From the NCBI GenBank assembly GCA_963827685.1, contig CAWHBU010000005.1:256001-320000 (forward strand): a stretch of DNA of 64,000 nucleotides, in the 5' to 3' direction. Positions 55,274-59,944 of this stretch are shown in pieces. Every line of letters starts with the position of its first letter. The stretch's first letter is position 1. The position numbers and the translations under genes are program-made. The stretch comes from an uncultured delta proteobacterium (GTDB taxonomy: Bacteria > Desulfobacterota > BSN033 > UBA1163). Below the pieces are notes generated by a model that ran no database searches, was not told where the DNA came from, and saw only the letters and a program-made list of their open reading frames with translations.

Positions 55274-55405
55274 GGATATGGAGTATGTGCTGTCCTCTGC
55301 CCTTCCTCAGCCGTAAAATTGGTGAGAAAGTCTGACGCCATTCCACCAAAGGACTTCAAAGAATTGCACCGAGAGATTTTGAAGGAAAGAAAACCCGCAG
55401 CATAA
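55274..55405 (+). pseudogene. C-terminal remnant of a 4Fe-4S binding protein (second copy at 59343-59449)
   Basis: GYGVCAVLCPSSAVKLVRKSDAIPPKDFKELHREILKERKPAA*; the stop codon overlaps the attC R' box. Confidence 0.55.
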
Positions 55406-55460
55406 CACAACGCTCACCGGGGGCCGGATTGATCGGCATCCGCTGGAAGCGTTGTTACCC
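55400..55460 (-). other. attC site 1
   Basis: Minus strand GGGTAAC aacgcttccagcgg...ccggtgagcgtt GTTATGC; R'' matches the cassette start GTTACCC at 56142. Confidence 0.75.
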
Positions 55461-55465
55461 CGTCC

Positions 55466-55750
55466 CTATGCCGCCTTTTTGAGAGTGACATGCATGCCAG
55501 CTCTCGTCGCAAGGGTAATAATCATTTCGAGGCTAAATCTCTCCCATTTGCCTCTGATCAAGTCTGAAACCCTGGATTGACTAACGCCGAGGATCTCCGC
55601 AGCCTTGGCCTGCGTTAGCCTCTTGGCTTTGATGAATTTCCGGAGATCGGCCATAAGATCGGCACGCATCTGAAGAATTGCGGCTTCATCCGGAGAATAC
55701 CCGAGGTCAATGAATACGTTTCCAGAAGATTTAACAGCAACCTCGCTCAT
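55466..55750 (-). CDS. higA: XRE/HTH antitoxin (HigA-like)
   Basis: SSGNVFIDLG, LTQAKAAEILGVSQSRVSDL. Confidence 0.85.
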   Translation of the reverse strand: MSEVAVKSSGNVFIDLGYSPDEAAILQMRADLMADLRKFIKAKRLTQAKAAEILGVSQSRVSDLIRGKWERFSLEMIITLATRAGMHVTLKKAA

Positions 55751-56067
55751 AAATTACCTCCAATCTGCCTGTACCGCTGGCGAGCCAAATCAATATCATG
55801 CCGGCTCGTTTTTCGAGTCTTCTTTTGAAATGCGTGAAGCACATAAACCGCTTCGCGAAGCTTAGCAACATAGATTACTCGCCACTCGCCCAAGACGTGG
55901 ATACGGATTTCCTTCACGCCTGGGCCGATCACCTGCATTGGTTTCCAATCGCTTGGTTCAAGTCCGTTTTGGACCGCACGGAGTTCGAAGCCTGCGGCAC
56001 GGCGAGCTTCATCGGGAAAGTTCCGAAGATCATCGAGGCTCGATCCCACGAAGTTCAACGGCTTCAT
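55747..56067 (-). CDS. higB: RelE/ParE-superfamily toxin (HigB/Gp49-like)
   Basis: DWKPM..IGPGVKEIRI...RVIY...VLHAFQKKT; 4-nt overlap with the antitoxin. Confidence 0.85.
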   Translation of the reverse strand: MKPLNFVGSSLDDLRNFPDEARRAAGFELRAVQNGLEPSDWKPMQVIGPGVKEIRIHVLGEWRVIYVAKLREAVYVLHAFQKKTRKTSRHDIDLARQRYRQIGGNL

Positions 56068-56080
56068 AGTCACCAGAATA

Positions 56081-56100: not shown

Positions 56101-56142
56101 TTAGCAAGTCCAATGATTAAGGTCCTTATCGTGCGGGGTAAC

Positions 56143-57945
56143 GAGCCTGTAGAAAAAGTCGGTTTTTTAAAAACCGCTTCTTCTGCTGGATCAAAAATAG
56201 GAAATTATTTTCTGTCATCAAAAGTTTTTCCGATTCTTGGCGAAATGTTCGTCTTTTCATGATATTTTTCTTACCACAGTATCATATCACCTAATCCGAC
56301 TCCGTTCACGCAAGCTCCAGACCGTATCGATGCACTTTAAATAGATTGTGCACCGCACAGTAGAGTAACCACTGGGTGTTCACTTTTCGTTTCCCTCGAA
56401 GGGTAAATCGGTTCAACCCTAAGGTAGAGCAAATATTCCCAAATACAGGCTCTGCCGTTCCGAGTCTCCTGTCGTAGATGAGTCTGCCTTTTATCGAATC
56501 TATTTTGCGCTTCATCTTCTGGGTAAACGTCTCCGGCTTCGACTCCGCACTCCCCTGAAAGAAGTACACCTGTCTTGCCTCCGTTCTGTCCGGATGTCTC
56601 AGGCATCTCTCCCGTAGTCCGCAGATCCGACAGTCGGTCTTTCTCCCATGAAACTTGATGGCCCGCTGACCGTTGACCACCACATTCCCCCCATTGCGAT
56701 ACAGGCGCTTACCCCCAGGACAGATGCAATGAGTCTTGTCTTCGCTGATCGTAAAATCCCTGTGTGGCCTGTATAAGTCGGCCACTCCGTAGTACTCAGC
56801 CCTCTCCTTTCTGAATTGCTCTTTGTATTTGTCAACGTCCGAAAACCGCGGGTCCCGCTTCCGAAACTGCGTGTCTGCAATATAGGCATCGATCCCTTGC
56901 CCCATGACCTCCTTCATATTCGCCTCGGTATGAAACCCACTGTCCGCTGTGAGCTTTGCTTTCTCGAAGATATCCTGTTTAATGCCGACGGCCTCGAAGT
57001 TCTCCCTCGTCCCCTCGAGCATAGGAAGAAGAAGATCATGTTCCTGCGCTGCTCCAAATGCCTCCGCATGTACAACCACCTGGTGCTTTCCGTCTACCAC
57101 CGCTACCCCATCGTAACCCTGGATCACCCCGTGCGAGGTCTTCATCTTGGCGCTCTCATTGTCCGTGATGTTGCTCTTCACGGGCTTACCGCTCTTGCCA
57201 GGTTTGTCCTCGTTTTCTCGTAGCCATGCCTTTATCTTCTTTACCTTCCCCCGAAGGGTCTCCACATACTGCTCTTCTTGCTCCATCACTCCCCGGTCCG
57301 CCTCGGTAACATCCACCTCCCGATGCCGCTTGACAATCTGCCTGATCACCTTCTCCATCTTCTCTCTTTTCTTCTCCAGTTCTTTCTTCGTCCCGCTCCA
57401 TTCTTTCGAGGCGTTTGAAGGCAGCTTGCAGCCATCCACTGCAAACATCTCTTTCCCGATCAGCCCCATCTCATCGCAGATCAACAGTATCTCTAGAAAC
57501 AGATGGATGATCTCCTGGCCCGAGGTCGAAATGAAGTCTGAGATCGTCGTAAAATGCGGCTGCGTATCCGCCGAGAGCGCCATGAAGATAACATTCTCTT
57601 GACAACACTGCGCTATCTTTCGGCTCGAGGTGATTCCTCGTGAGTACACATACAGGATAATCTTTAATAGGACGGCGGGATCGTATGCCGGCGCTCCCAT
57701 CTCGTCGTTTCGGTACCGGCAATCAAAAATCGACAGGTCTATCTCGTTGTCAATGAGGTAATGAAGGCTATACTCAAACGTCCCGGGTAAGATCTGTCGG
57801 TCAAAGTGGATCGGTATGAACTTTCCCTGTGAATAATCAAACTCTTTGTATCTCGCCATCCAGTCCCTCCTAAGCGGTCTCCGCTCTCTTTGCCGCTACT
57901 GATATGGCGATTTTATCATGCTTTTAAGACTTTTTCTACAGCCTC
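56143..57945 (-). mobile_element. IS1182-family insertion sequence (1803 bp) with 18-bp IRs and AAC duplication
   Basis: GAGCCTGTAGAAAAAGTC (56143) / GACTTTTTCTACAGCCTC (57928-57945), flanked by aac on both sides. Confidence 0.9.
56306..57859 (-). CDS. IS1182-family DDE transposase
   Basis: GAPAYDP..LLK..LY...SSRKI (DUF772), VDGCK, ADSGF, AEPVFGNI. Confidence 0.92.
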   Translation of the reverse strand: MARYKEFDYSQGKFIPIHFDRQILPGTFEYSLHYLIDNEIDLSIFDCRYRNDEMGAPAYDPAVLLKIILYVYSRGITSSRKIAQCCQENVIFMALSADTQPHFTTISDFISTSGQEIIHLFLEILLICDEMGLIGKEMFAVDGCKLPSNASKEWSGTKKELEKKREKMEKVIRQIVKRHREVDVTEADRGVMEQEEQYVETLRGKVKKIKAWLRENEDKPGKSGKPVKSNITDNESAKMKTSHGVIQGYDGVAVVDGKHQVVVHAEAFGAAQEHDLLLPMLEGTRENFEAVGIKQDIFEKAKLTADSGFHTEANMKEVMGQGIDAYIADTQFRKRDPRFSDVDKYKEQFRKERAEYYGVADLYRPHRDFTISEDKTHCICPGGKRLYRNGGNVVVNGQRAIKFHGRKTDCRICGLRERCLRHPDRTEARQVYFFQGSAESKPETFTQKMKRKIDSIKGRLIYDRRLGTAEPVFGNICSTLGLNRFTLRGKRKVNTQWLLYCAVHNLFKVHRYGLELA

Positions 57946-58006
57946 AACGCCAGCATAAGGGGCGCGGCGGCTTTTTGCTTTGTCCTTCTTTAGCGAATGG
58001 TTAGCT
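57946..58006 (-). other. attC site 2, interrupted by the IS at its R' GTT
   Basis: Minus strand AGCTAAC ... ttatgctggc GTT|IS; R'' matches the cassette start GTTAGCT at 58561. Confidence 0.65.
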
Positions 58007-58007
58007 G

Positions 58008-58547
58008 TCAGTCGCTCAACCACACTCTTATAAAACGCTTCGTATTATTATCCCAATAGAAAAGGGATGCCGCGCTTTCAAACCTATAGTAAAGGATGGA
58101 GGGGGTCTTTATTGTGATCTTTGACCTCGGTTCCGTTTTTCCAACGCAGTCATTCCCAACCTCTATACAGAGATACTGGTGCGTGCCTGGTGCGAGTACT
58201 TTTAACCCCATCCCTAAGTCAACATTGGGGTACTTCGGTCCCCAATCAATTACGTCCAGGGTTACCCACCTGAAACCCCCCTTGCCATCGGACAACCATA
58301 CCAAAAGGCCTTGGCCACTGAACTTTGTGCTCTTAAACAAGAATGCCTCATCTTGCACCCCGTCACCGTTGAAATCGGCGGTGGCCCAGGCCAATTTCGT
58401 TGGTGACTTGCTCCGCTCTTGATCAGCTAATTCATTTTCAGTCGGATAGCGCCAGCCATCAGGAGGTCTGTCGGCTCCAACCGTATAATCTGGAGACCAC
58501 AGGAACAGGGCGCAGCAGACTGTGAGTGATAGAATAAATCCTTTCAT
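58008..58547 (-). CDS. Exported hypothetical protein (cassette ORF)
   Basis: Signal peptide, ADFNGDG motif, ends WLSD; bounded by cassette boxes. Confidence 0.75.
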   Translation of the reverse strand: MKGFILSLTVCCALFLWSPDYTVGADRPPDGWRYPTENELADQERSKSPTKLAWATADFNGDGVQDEAFLFKSTKFSGQGLLVWLSDGKGGFRWVTLDVIDWGPKYPNVDLGMGLKVLAPGTHQYLCIEVGNDCVGKTEPRSKITIKTPSILYYRFESAASLFYWDNNTKRFIRVWLSD

Positions 58548-58561
58548 AAATGATAGCTAAC

Positions 58562-58721
58562 GAGCCTGTAGAAAAACCCCCTCACTGCGATTAAGGGATG
58601 GTTTTCTGGGGGTCTCTTGACCCCTCCTCAGCATGAGATCGTCGCATACAGAGCATCCCGAAGGGTCGTATCTTCTTCCAACTAACCGCATTCGTGCGAG
58701 ATTGACTTTCTCTACAGCCTA
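58562..58721. mobile_element. 160-bp MITE with IS1182-type ends inserted in attC 3
   Basis: GAGCCTGTAGAAAAA ... GACTTTCTCTACAGCCTA, flanked by aac/aac. Confidence 0.8.
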
Positions 58722-58780
58722 AACATCGCAGCTCCCCGGCCGCCAAGTTACTGGCGGTTGGGTGTAGCCGCAGGTAAGAA
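58722..58780 (-). other. attC site 3 (degenerate R'')
   Basis: TTCTTAC versus the cassette start GTTAGAA at 59286; stem ccggccgcc/ggcggttgg. Confidence 0.55.
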
Positions 58781-58789
58781 GAAGTTTTT

Positions 58790-59266
58790 CTAATCACGTT
58801 GCAGTGAGCGAAGAAATTTAAGGATATCACGAATTATTTCCTTAAACGTATACCTGTCAGTAGCGCTATCTACACATTCTTCCGCATGATTATTTGTAAT
58901 ATCAGTTTCTGACAGTTCGAATTTACCTTGTTCTATTTGACTCAAAAGGTCCTTGGCTTTCTCTACATCCTTTTCGTCAACCTGAATCGCAACAGGACCA
59001 ACTATTGGGTTAAACCCGGTACCTAAGCGGCCTCCTGCAAATAAGTCCTGCAACCCTTCGCCTTTAACATAATATTTGATACCTTCAGATTCGAAAAGTG
59101 ACTTGGCAAATGCAATATAAGCAGGATCGCCTGTTTCATACACAGTCACAAATCTAATAAATTCAGACTCTATTCCAGGAGGAGACTCATTAACAAGGGC
59201 CACATTGCACGTTGAACATACAGTAATTCCCTCGATATATTCAGCACCGCAATTTGGACAAAACAC
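58790..59266 (-). CDS. Zinc-ribbon + DUF2007-like protein (cassette ORF)
   Basis: FCPNCGAEY...C..C; KSLFESEGI; IQVDEKD.EKA; SD AGGAG. Confidence 0.8.
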   Translation of the reverse strand: MFCPNCGAEYIEGITVCSTCNVALVNESPPGIESEFIRFVTVYETGDPAYIAFAKSLFESEGIKYYVKGEGLQDLFAGGRLGTGFNPIVGPVAIQVDEKDVEKAKDLLSQIEQGKFELSETDITNNHAEECVDSATDRYTFKEIIRDILKFLRSLQRD

Positions 59267-59286
59267 TTATATCTCCTAATTCTAAC

Positions 59287-59342
59287 GAGCCTGTAGAAAA
59301 AACCCCTCAATACGATTGAGGGATGGTTTTCGGGGGTCGGTT
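59287..59342. mobile_element. Left half of a second IS1182-type MITE at a cassette junction
   Basis: ctaac|GAGCCTGTAGAAAAAACCCCTCA...GGGATGGTTTT, similar to 58562-58615. Confidence 0.7.
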
Positions 59343-59443
59343 GCCCTTCCTCAGCCGTAAAGTTGGTGAGAAAGTCTGACGCCATTCCTCCAAAAGACTT
59401 TAAAGAATTGCACCAAGAGATTTTGAAGGAAAGAAAATCCGCA

Positions 59444-59506
59444 GCATGACGCTAACGCTCACCGGGGGCCGGATTGATCGGCATCCGGTGGCGCCGCTTG
59501 TTAGCG
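59444..59506 (-). other. attC site 4, near-copy of attC 1
   Basis: CGCTAAC ... caccggatgccgatcaatccggcccccggtgagcg ... GTCATGC. Confidence 0.7.
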
Positions 59507-59886: not shown

Positions 59887-59944
59887 CGCTAATGATCTGA
59901 ATCAGCGGGGCATATTACGCATCTGCCGAATTGTTTTGTCAGCC
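59887..59944 (-). other. attC site 5 (degenerate)
   Basis: GGCTGAC ... ATTAGCG; R'' matches the cassette start GTTAGCC at 61367 with one mismatch. Confidence 0.5.

What the first reader, a model, noticed from the sequence alone, without database searches (positions are those of the whole stretch)
56136..59342. IS1182-family element and its MITEs insert exactly at integron attC crossover points
Seen: the same end GAGCCTGTAGAAAAA directly follows a cassette-junction ...TAAC three times (56143, 58562, 59287), always in the same orientation. The full IS (56143-57945) and a 160-bp MITE (58562-58721) are each flanked by a duplicated AAC, which is the GTT of the R' box, so each splits an attC at the integrase crossover point. 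Established: attC targeting is known for IS1111-attC (IS110 family) elements and group IIC-attC introns; I know of no equivalent for IS1182 DDE elements. Inference: a structure-guided, attC-specific DDE transposon with non-autonomous partners that may freeze or re-route cassette excision.
Basis: partly seen in the sequence, partly recalled or inferred. Interest (0 to 1): 0.8.

Follow-up and report, generated by a model that had tools for sequence, protein, structure and literature searches.

The report
Insertion sequence that targets integron attC sites
A jumping gene of the IS1182 type, together with its miniature derivatives, lands almost only on the three-base GTT core at the end of integron cassette recombination sites, always facing the same way, which adds a third kind of mobile element specialised on integrons.

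Summary
An 1803-bp IS (56143-57945), a 160-bp MITE (58562-58721) and a truncated MITE (59287-~59355) each follow TAAC in the same orientation. The two complete elements carry a 3-bp AAC duplication.

The attC reading holds, mainly on evidence from outside the window. In this genome, 30 of 35 true ends are flanked by GTT or AAC. In other genomes the figure is 40 of 41 ends, and in metagenome contigs 105 of 110 distinct junctions.

A covariance model built only from 27 uninterrupted attC sites of this genome finds attC sites that end exactly at the element. This holds for 10 of 18 junctions here, 10 of 20 in other genomes and 41 of 87 GTT-flanked junctions in metagenome contigs. All 103 attC hits in metagenome loci with a single GTT-flanked junction lie on the element's strand.

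The duplicated triplet is the conserved GTT of the R' box, which contains the integrase crossover. The transposase gene points the same way as the cassettes.

The two attC sites in the window are poor. One is a decayed copy of an attC family that is intact in related genomes. The other is only attC-like.

"Structure-guided" recognition is not shown. An equally good reading is direct readout of the R'-proximal half-site.

Hairpin targeting by the IS1182 family (IS1272), IS1111-attC elements and group IIC-attC introns are already known. My seven literature searches found no report of an IS1182-type attC specialist.

The parts
56143..57945 (-). Full IS, 1803 bp, IS1182-like; one of 5 full copies in the genome
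   Evidence: the 4 other full copies are 99% identical.
56306..57859 (-). Transposase gene, 517 aa, a single ORF
   Evidence: ORF. DUF772 at residues 55-121, DDE_Tnp_1_6 at 379-510, DDE_Tnp_1. NF033551, 255 bits against a cut-off of 270.
57928..57945 (-). IRL (the end upstream of the transposase gene). It abuts the attC body and holds a promoter-like site at 57938-57910
   Evidence: TAGAAA, 17-nt spacer, TAAAAT, with TG.
56143..56160 (-). IRR (the end downstream of the transposase gene). It abuts the start of the next cassette. A terminator-like hairpin plus T-run lies at 56176-56160
56140..56142 (.). Target duplication AAC, copy 1 of the IS
57946..57948 (.). Target duplication AAC, copy 2 of the IS (equals the GTT of R' on the - strand)
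57946..58006 (-). Decayed attC of the cassette 58008-58547 (site A). Its R' GTT is the duplicated triplet
   Evidence: 80-87% identical to intact attC sites in 5 genomes of the family. No R3 hit and no hairpin, z +1.0.
58562..58721 (+). 160-bp MITE. It shares only its terminal repeats with the IS
   Evidence: 4 full-length relatives in the genome at 79-86% identity, plus one partial.
58559..58561 (.). Target duplication AAC, copy 1 of the MITE
58722..58724 (.). Target duplication AAC, copy 2 of the MITE
58722..58788 (-). attC-like site of the cassette 58790-59266 (site B). Not verified
   Evidence: Modest hairpin, z -2.0 and -1.5. No R3 hit. No relatives found.
59287..59355 (+). Truncated MITE (IRR half only) directly after TAAC at 59283-59286
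59444..59506 (-). Intact attC
   Evidence: R3, 60.4 bits, E 2.4e-12. Fold z -3.6 and -3.9. It was among the model's training sites.
55400..55460 (-). Intact attC after the HigA-like cassette
   Evidence: R3, 49.6 bits, E 2.5e-9. Fold z -5.0 and -3.4. It was among the model's training sites.
59887..59944 (-). Weak attC candidate between two cassettes
   Evidence: R3, 13.8 bits, E 0.39, with filters off.
55466..56073 (-). Toxin-antitoxin cassette: a Gp49/HigB-like gene (55747-56073) and an HTH_37 gene (55466-55750)
58008..58547 (-). Cassette ORF, 179 aa, no Pfam family
58790..59266 (-). Cassette ORF, 158 aa, DUF2007

Best explanation
This is a specialised clade of IS1182-type DDE insertion sequences. 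Its transposase integrates the element, and MITEs with the same 18-bp ends supplied in trans, into the conserved GTT/AAC triplet of the R' box at the 3' end of integron attC sites. The cuts are staggered by 3 bp, so GTT is duplicated on both sides. The end upstream of the transposase gene always abuts the attC body, so the gene reads the same way as the cassettes.

My best guess for recognition is direct readout of the R'-proximal half-site as duplex DNA. That half-site is the L' box, a 6-nt spacer and the core C-GTT-A. A stable folded hairpin would then not be needed.

Shown: the site, the triplet, the orientation, the lack of a deletion, and the breadth across genomes.

Inferred: the mode of recognition. 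Also inferred is that the attC keeps a usable R' (GTT plus the element's GAGS), so the element would travel as the head of the next cassette. A third inference is that the hairpin plus T-run at the downstream end stops read-through transcription.

Targeted insertion at attC R' as such I put at about 0.9. The confidence below is for the half-site readout version.
For: Flanks:
- In this genome, 35 ends are judged true among 41 motif matches. Six matches inside genes were dropped because their interiors are unlike the IS.
- 14 of 17 IRL-type ends follow GTT, and 16 of 18 IRR-type ends follow AAC.
- In other genomes, 40 of 41 ends are flanked this way.
- In metagenome contigs, 95 of 110 distinct junctions are flanked by GTT and 10 by AAC.

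attC sites:
- The 27 uninterrupted sites have the R''-L''...L'-R' layout. 81.7% of cells pair, against 24-39% when the partner is slid. There are 61 double-change cells against 25.9 in shuffles, 0 of 500 reaching the observed value.
- Model R3, built from these 27 sites only, gives full-length hits whose last 7 positions are GTT plus 4 element bases. At E < 0.01 this holds for 7 junctions and 3 more with filters off, so 10 of 18 in total. An eleventh scores E 0.18.
- In other genomes the count is 10 of 20, plus one weak hit.
- In metagenome loci it is 41 of 87 GTT-flanked junctions, and 0 of the 14 junctions not flanked by GTT.

Orientation: 103 of 103 R3 hits lie on the element's strand, and 30 of 32 do so.

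True duplication without deletion:
- One copy carries ATT on both sides.
- The site on contig C8 is collinear with intact attC homologues that hold a single AAC.

Breadth: the same ends and the same GTT|IS|GTT arrangement occur in Pseudoalteromonas cassette arrays at 44% amino-acid identity.

Half-site readout:
- C precedes GTT in 91% of targets, against 63% of intact attC sites. A follows GTT in 90%, against 63%.
- The window IS sits in an attC with a ruined 5' arm, although the IS copies are 99-100% alike.
Against: - Eight of 18 junctions here get no R3 hit at E < 0.01 (one of them scores E 0.18), and so do about half elsewhere. The model knows only one attC family, so this is weak evidence either way.
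- Two old MITEs have TTT on the attC side and GTT on the other, and one has GTT and GTG. Decay explains this, but the repeated TTT/GTT pattern is odd.
- The half-site readout rests on base frequencies and on one decayed site. The L' box is conserved in attC sites anyway, so sequence and structure cannot be told apart here.
- The only intI found is a 101-aa C-terminal remnant, so these arrays are clusters without a working integrase in this 94.5% complete assembly.
- NF033551 scores 255 bits, below its cut-off of 270.
Confidence: 0.5

Rival explanations
1. The site, triplet and orientation are as above, but the transposase recognises the folded attC hairpin or cruciform. It would tell R' from R'' by the asymmetric bulged bases, much as the integrase does.
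For: - IS1272/TnSha1 of the IS1182 family insert into hairpins with little sequence conservation. That paper quotes a review saying that some family members target palindromes (passages of PMC4923244).
- The targets come from many attC families with diverse sequence.
- Insertion is always at R' and never at the near-symmetrical R''.
Against: - The window IS sits beside an attC that does not fold (z +1.0), and the IS is recent.
- R' and R'' can also be told apart by sequence: C rather than T before GTT, and a spacer of 6 nt rather than 5.
- My two crude hairpin scores did not separate targets from controls. They also missed half of the intact attC sites, so they say little.
- IS1272 leaves deletions and no duplication, unlike this element.
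Confidence: 0.35
2. The integron integrase, not the transposase, places circular copies of the element at attC sites by G|TT recombination.
For: - The joints coincide with the crossover triplet, in a fixed orientation.
- The two TTT/GTT elements are what a G|TT exchange with a TTT-type R' would give.
Against: - The ATT/ATT duplication in the copy on contig C1 fits transposition, not an integrase exchange.
- The only intI found in the genome is truncated, yet the copies are 99-100% alike.
- The element has its own DDE enzyme and inverted repeats, and the MITEs share only those repeats.
- The abutted ends would put GTT at a hairpin tip rather than in an R box (inference).
Confidence: 0.05
3. The element inserts widely, and only copies in attC sites survive because those sites are harmless.
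For: Cassette junctions are non-essential, and many decayed remnants sit there.
Against: Selection cannot produce the same triplet, the same nucleotide position and the same orientation in 105 of 110 distinct junctions. Other intergenic DNA is plentiful.
Confidence: 0.03
4. The element prefers only a short word (TAAC|G) or generic terminators. The link with attC is incidental.
For: The flank is a short conserved word.
Against: CGTTA occurs 4609 times in the genome, with only 9 in unoccupied attC hits. Even T[GT]A-N7-CGTTA occurs 184 times outside attC hits. Yet at least 10 of 18 junctions sit at model-detected attC ends.
Confidence: 0.02

Closest known systems
IS1111-attC group (ISPa21, ISPst6, ISKpn4; IS110/IS1111 family)
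   Same: Insertion sequences that specifically target attC sites of cassette arrays in one orientation (passages of PMC3001079, and of PMC11187229).
   Different: Those have a DEDD transposase guided by a seekRNA and subterminal repeats. They are reported near the 5' end of attC motifs and antisense to the cassettes. This element has a DDE enzyme of the IS1182 type and 18-bp terminal repeats. It makes a 3-bp GTT duplication at the 3' end (R') and is co-oriented with the cassettes.
Group IIC-attC introns
   Same: A monophyletic lineage of a mobile element that specialises on attC sites.
   Different: They are retroelements that insert into the bottom strand, opposite to cassette transcription. 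This element is a DNA transposon with the opposite orientation.
IS1272 / TnSha1 (IS1182 family)
   Same: The same transposase family, and targets are DNA hairpins or palindromes.
   Different: IS1272 shows no sequence consensus, inserts in both orientations, makes no duplication and deletes part of the hairpin. This element uses one triplet and one orientation, makes a 3-bp duplication and causes no deletion.
REP-targeting IS elements (ISPa11; IS1397 is recalled and comes from no call)
   Same: Insertion sequences that home to short, structured, repeated intergenic elements.
   Different: Different transposase families and different targets.

Membership tests
IS1182 family | Transposase matches the family model (NCBIfam NF033551, an equivalog) | tested here: inconclusive
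   E 1.5e-75, covering profile positions 34-486 of 488, but 255 bits against a curated cut-off of 270. The next best model, IS5, scores 35 bits.
IS1182 family | DDE transposase with an N-terminal DUF772 and a C-terminal DDE_Tnp_1_6 | tested here: met
   All three Pfam families score above their cut-offs.
IS1182 family | Terminal inverted repeats, one ORF, and a length in the family range (the range is recalled from ISfinder and was not checked) | tested here: met
   18-bp repeats with 1 mismatch, one 517-aa ORF, 1803 bp.
Integron attC site (the targets) | R''-L''...L'-R' layout with paired boxes, an extra base in L'', and AAC/GTT cores | tested here: met
   For the genome's main attC family (27 sites): 81.7% of cells pair, with covariation above both controls. 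The layout itself is recalled knowledge.
Integron attC site (the targets) | The two window targets score as attC | tested here: not met
   No R3 hit up to E 10 with filters off. Site A is 80-87% identical to intact attC sites of another family in related genomes. Site B is only attC-like. IntegronFinder's model was not available.
Integron attC site (the targets) | Sites lie after short co-oriented ORFs in arrays, in a genome with an integron integrase | tested here: inconclusive
   The arrays are present. Only a 101-aa C-terminal intI remnant was found: TIGR02249 positions 197-315, 191 bits, below the cut-off of 265. The assembly is 94.5% complete.
IS1111-attC group | DEDD transposase, and insertion near the 5' end of attC in antisense orientation | tested here: not met
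   The Pfam families are of the DDE type. Insertion is at the 3' end and co-oriented.
MITE | Short, non-coding, with the same terminal repeats and target duplication as an autonomous IS in the same genome | tested here: met
   Elements of 158-160 bp and 304 bp with AAC duplications. The 304-bp form corresponds to IS positions 1-188 plus 1689-1803 at 89-90% identity.
IS1272-type hairpin insertion | No duplication, and part of the hairpin deleted | tested here: not met
   A 3-bp duplication is seen in 10 of 14 complete elements exactly and in 4 with one change or as AAT/AAT. The site is collinear with intact homologues.

The most novel reading that the evidence does not exclude
A DDE transposase has converged on the integron integrase's own substrate. 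It would read the folded bottom-strand attC and tell R' from R'' by the bulged bases. By rebuilding a usable R' (GTT plus its own GAGS end), the element would become the head of the next cassette. The integrase could then excise it and pass it between genomes and phyla. This would make it a transposon that uses the integron as a second transfer system.
Probability: 0.2. Interest if true: 0.85.

Novelty: new variant of a known kind. Interest (0 to 1): 0.68.

Why it matters
Only two kinds of attC specialist are described: IS1111-attC elements and group IIC-attC introns. Both sit near the 5' end of the site and antisense to the cassettes.

This would be a third, independent kind. It has a classical DDE enzyme, sits at the opposite end of the site, and has the opposite orientation. 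It also comes with MITEs.

It is common in environmental bacteria. Relatives with the same ends occur in Thermodesulfobacteriota, Nitrospirota-type MAGs and Pseudoalteromonas.

In this genome, 7 of the 37 model-detected attC sites at E <= 0.01 are occupied. Such elements may therefore shape how cassette arrays decay into integrase-less clusters, how cassettes are transcribed, and which cassettes can still move.

The system also offers a simple way to ask how a DDE transposase achieves near-single-site targeting.

Tried and rejected
- De novo hairpin scans. I looked for AAC...GTT pairs with complementary boxes and a forced fold. They gave 306 and 369 candidates across the genome, mostly noise. 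I used them only to pick seeds.
- RNAalifold on a MAFFT alignment of 7 seeds found no structure. I supplied the structure by hand and checked it.
- Models R1 and R2 contained junction sites, so I used them only to find sites. All counts come from R3, which was built from uninterrupted sites only.
- Two energy scores for the flanks did not separate the targets from 420 and 599 control CGTTA sites. One was a forced hairpin and the other an arm duplex. 9 of 35 and 8 of 36 targets fell below the 5th percentile of controls. The arm score also caught only 52% of intact attC sites. I draw nothing from them.
- A search for relatives of window site B in 55 genomes of the family found nothing below E 0.03.
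- The flank of the copy on contig C9 matched only a 27-36-nt repeat, which belongs to another MITE-like element. That site stays unverified.
- The Catenovulum element (42% identity) is truncated and its orientation is unclear. I left it out of the counts.
- I dropped 6 of 41 motif matches in this genome as chance hits inside genes.
- Supplements were not opened. ISfinder and TnPedia could not be consulted, and they may hold a note on this target.
- Seven literature searches found no report of an IS1182-type attC specialist. A cassette survey reports that IS5-family transposases are the commonest in cassette data (49%) but does not analyse their targets (passages of PMC11089894).
Full report
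**What is in the window**

The window is G000:C5:256001-320000. Between 55240 and 61400 lies a short array of small ORFs, all on the - strand. They are:
- a Gp49/HigB-like gene with an HTH partner;
- a 179-aa ORF;
- a DUF2007 ORF;
- a 91-aa ORF;
- a 479-aa ORF.

Three elements share one end, GAGCCTGTAGAAAAA, and each follows TAAC on the + strand, at 56143, 58562 and 59287. A fourth copy of the motif, with 1 mismatch, lies inverted at 57931-57945. That is 4 matches against 0.28 expected.

The first element is an 1803-bp IS with 18-bp inverted repeats and a 517-aa transposase on the - strand. The transposase carries DUF772, DDE_Tnp_1_6 and DDE_Tnp_1. NCBIfam's IS1182 model gives E 1.5e-75 over nearly the whole profile, but its 255 bits fall just below the cut-off of 270. 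I call it IS1182-like.

The second element is a 160-bp MITE. The third holds only the first ~70 nt of such a MITE, joined to a ~150-nt unit that recurs at 55298-55446. Both complete elements are flanked by AAC.

**Copies in the genome**

The genome holds 5 full copies, 99-100% identical. It also holds 304-bp deletion derivatives (IS positions 1-188 plus 1689-1803), a 405-bp form, five 158-160-bp MITEs and many solo or truncated ends.

Of 41 motif matches with at most 1 mismatch, I dropped 6 as chance hits inside genes. Of the 35 remaining:
- 14 of 17 ends on the transposase's upstream side (IRL) follow GTT. The others follow ATT (1) and TTT (2).
- 16 of 18 ends on the downstream side (IRR) follow AAC. 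The others follow AAT and CAC.

Among 14 complete elements, the two flanking triplets are AAC/AAC in 10, AAT/AAT in 1, AAC/AAA in 2 and CAC/AAC in 1. The AAT/AAT copy shows that the triplet is a true target duplication and not part of the element. Several left flanks have T rather than C before GTT, which shows that the duplication is 3 bp and not 4.

**Are the targets attC sites?**

No ready attC model was available, so I built one.
- Seeds came from hairpin scans.
- They were aligned and given the recalled R''-L''...L'-R' structure, which I then checked.
- Two rounds of search followed.

This gave 27 uninterrupted sites. On them, 81.7% of cells pair, against 24-39% when the 3' partner is slid. 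There are 61 cells with a change on both sides against 25.9 in shuffles, and 0 of 500 shuffles reached that. Column 16 is a bulged base in L''.

Model R3 was built from these 27 sites only. On the whole genome it gives 37 hits at E <= 0.01. Of these, 26 are training sites, 4 are new sites away from any element, and 7 end exactly 4 nt inside an element. In those 7, the model's R' box is GTT plus GAGS.

With filters off on 77 kb, 3 more junctions appear (E 2.5e-4, 8.5e-4, 6.5e-3), and one more at E 0.18. So 10 of 18 IRL-side junctions sit at a model-detected attC end. All are at R', none is at R'', and all are full-length.

The genome has an integron-integrase remnant, a 101-aa ORF that matches TIGR02249 positions 197-315. 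The arrays are therefore attC clusters without a working integrase in this assembly.

**The two window sites**

Neither window site gets an R3 hit, even at E 10.

Site A (57946-58006) does not fold (z +1.0), whereas the intact window attC sites give z -3.4 to -5.0. Its sequence is nevertheless 80-87% identical to sites in 5 other genomes of the family. Those sites show a complete R''-spacer-L''-loop-L'-spacer-R' layout. Site A is therefore an attC of a second family whose 5' arm has decayed.

Site B (58722-58788) folds modestly (z -2.0 and -1.5) and has no relatives. It is attC-like by position, directly after a cassette ORF, and by its boxes, but it is not verified.

**No deletion**

The flank of the copy on contig C8 matches many intact attC sites in genomes of the same genus. 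These sites are collinear with the two flanks and hold a single AAC at the insertion point.

**Breadth**

- 22 loci in other MAGs (65-91% amino-acid identity; Thermodesulfobacteriota, Nitrospirae or Thermodesulfovibrionia, and Desulfobacteraceae by their record titles) give 40 of 41 ends flanked by GTT or AAC. On these loci, 30 of 32 R3 hits lie on the transposase strand. 10 of 20 IRL junctions, plus one weak one, carry a hit that ends 4 nt inside the IS.
- Two Pseudoalteromonas chromids hold elements at 44% identity. They have the same GAGGCTGTAGAA ends and the same GTT|IS|GTT arrangement, inside arrays of co-oriented attC hits.
Of 110 distinct junctions, 95 follow GTT, 10 follow AAC and 5 follow something else.
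- In the first 100 metagenome loci there are 101 junctions, 87 of them flanked by GTT. 41 of those 87 carry an R3 hit (E <= 0.01) that ends exactly 4 nt inside the element. None of the 14 other junctions does. 103 of 103 R3 hits in loci with a single GTT-flanked junction are co-oriented.

**Sequence or structure?**

In the pooled 34 IRL and 40 IRR flanks, the targets share this pattern: CC-G-S-T-K-A at a fixed distance, then C (91%), GTT, then A (90%). In the 27 intact attC sites, C precedes GTT in 63% and A follows it in 63%.

Read on the other strand, R'' differs in having T before GTT and a 5-nt spacer. Sequence alone could therefore explain the choice of R'.

CGTTA occurs 4609 times in the genome, and the longer half-site word occurs 184 times outside attC hits. 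More than the core must therefore be read.

The window IS sits in a non-folding attC although the copies are recent. This argues against a strict need for a hairpin, but it is a single case. I lean towards half-site readout (0.5) over hairpin recognition (0.35).

**Likely consequences (inferred)**

After insertion, the attC body keeps GTT followed by the element's GAGS, and R3 still scores such sites. The integrase might therefore still use them, and the element would then belong to the next cassette.

All three window elements carry a hairpin plus T-run next to the IRR on the cassette-sense strand. The IRL holds a promoter-like site that points into the transposase gene. These are pattern matches only.

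**Comparison with what is known**

- IS1111-attC elements and group IIC-attC introns are reported near the 5' end of attC and antisense to the cassettes (passages of PMC3001079). IS1111-type enzymes are DEDD and RNA-guided (passages of PMC11187229).
- IS1272/TnSha1 of the IS1182 family insert into hairpins without a consensus, in both orientations, with no duplication and with deletions (passages of PMC4923244).
- The present clade differs from all three.
- Seven searches found no report of it.
- Tetu and Holmes 2008 and Post and Hall 2009 were seen only as citations.
- The G|TT crossover and the box names are recalled knowledge.

Noticed in passing
G000 C2:14202-15796, C2:16869-18463, C2:37535-39129, C3:309487-311081, C3:329920-331514, C8:46190-47784: A second IS of 1595 bp, with ends CAGTCTGTTGAAAAAC. 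It has six copies, each with a 4-bp duplication (TTTA, TCAA or TTAA), and each sits inside a similar GTC...GAC context. It may also home to a repeated palindromic site.
   Followed up: no
window 55298-55446 and 59342-59491: A ~150-nt unit is present twice at 93% identity. Each copy ends in an intact attC. On the + strand it holds a short reading frame whose differences are mostly synonymous, by eye. The second copy is fused to the truncated MITE.
   Followed up: partly
G000 C3:782919-783275 (L017:1492-1797, - strand): An integron-integrase remnant. It is a 101-aa ORF that matches only the C-terminal third of TIGR02249 (191 bits). The N-terminal part is replaced by unrelated sequence.
   Followed up: partly
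window 56160-56176, 58578-58598, 59302-59324: Each of the three elements has a terminator-like hairpin followed by the T-run of the IRR on the cassette-sense strand. The hairpin sequences differ between the IS and the MITEs.
   Followed up: no
G000 C9:24440-24500; L127, L128: Another MITE-like family has a related but distinct end (TACCTTTAGGTGAATAAAAGTC...). It is seen upstream of the IS copy on contig C9 and in genomes of the same genus. One copy has an interior like that of the 160-bp MITE.
   Followed up: no
G000 C4:98186-99117: A solo IRL stub of ~17 nt at an attC end is followed by a gene that looks, by eye, like an IS200/RAYT-type Y1 transposase. It was not scanned.
   Followed up: no
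L105:2820-2824: A MITE-like end starts right after the GTT that follows the IRR of a full IS. This looks like a second insertion into the duplicated triplet.
   Followed up: no
L122 (Catenovulum adriaticum pCadTS8_1): A truncated relative of the IS lies next to a BrnT/CopG toxin-antitoxin pair and a fragment of a group II intron maturase. Two kinds of attC-associated element may therefore share one array.
   Followed up: no
G000 C10:30214-32213: Three successive cassette junctions within 2 kb each carry a MITE or a solo end.
   Followed up: partly
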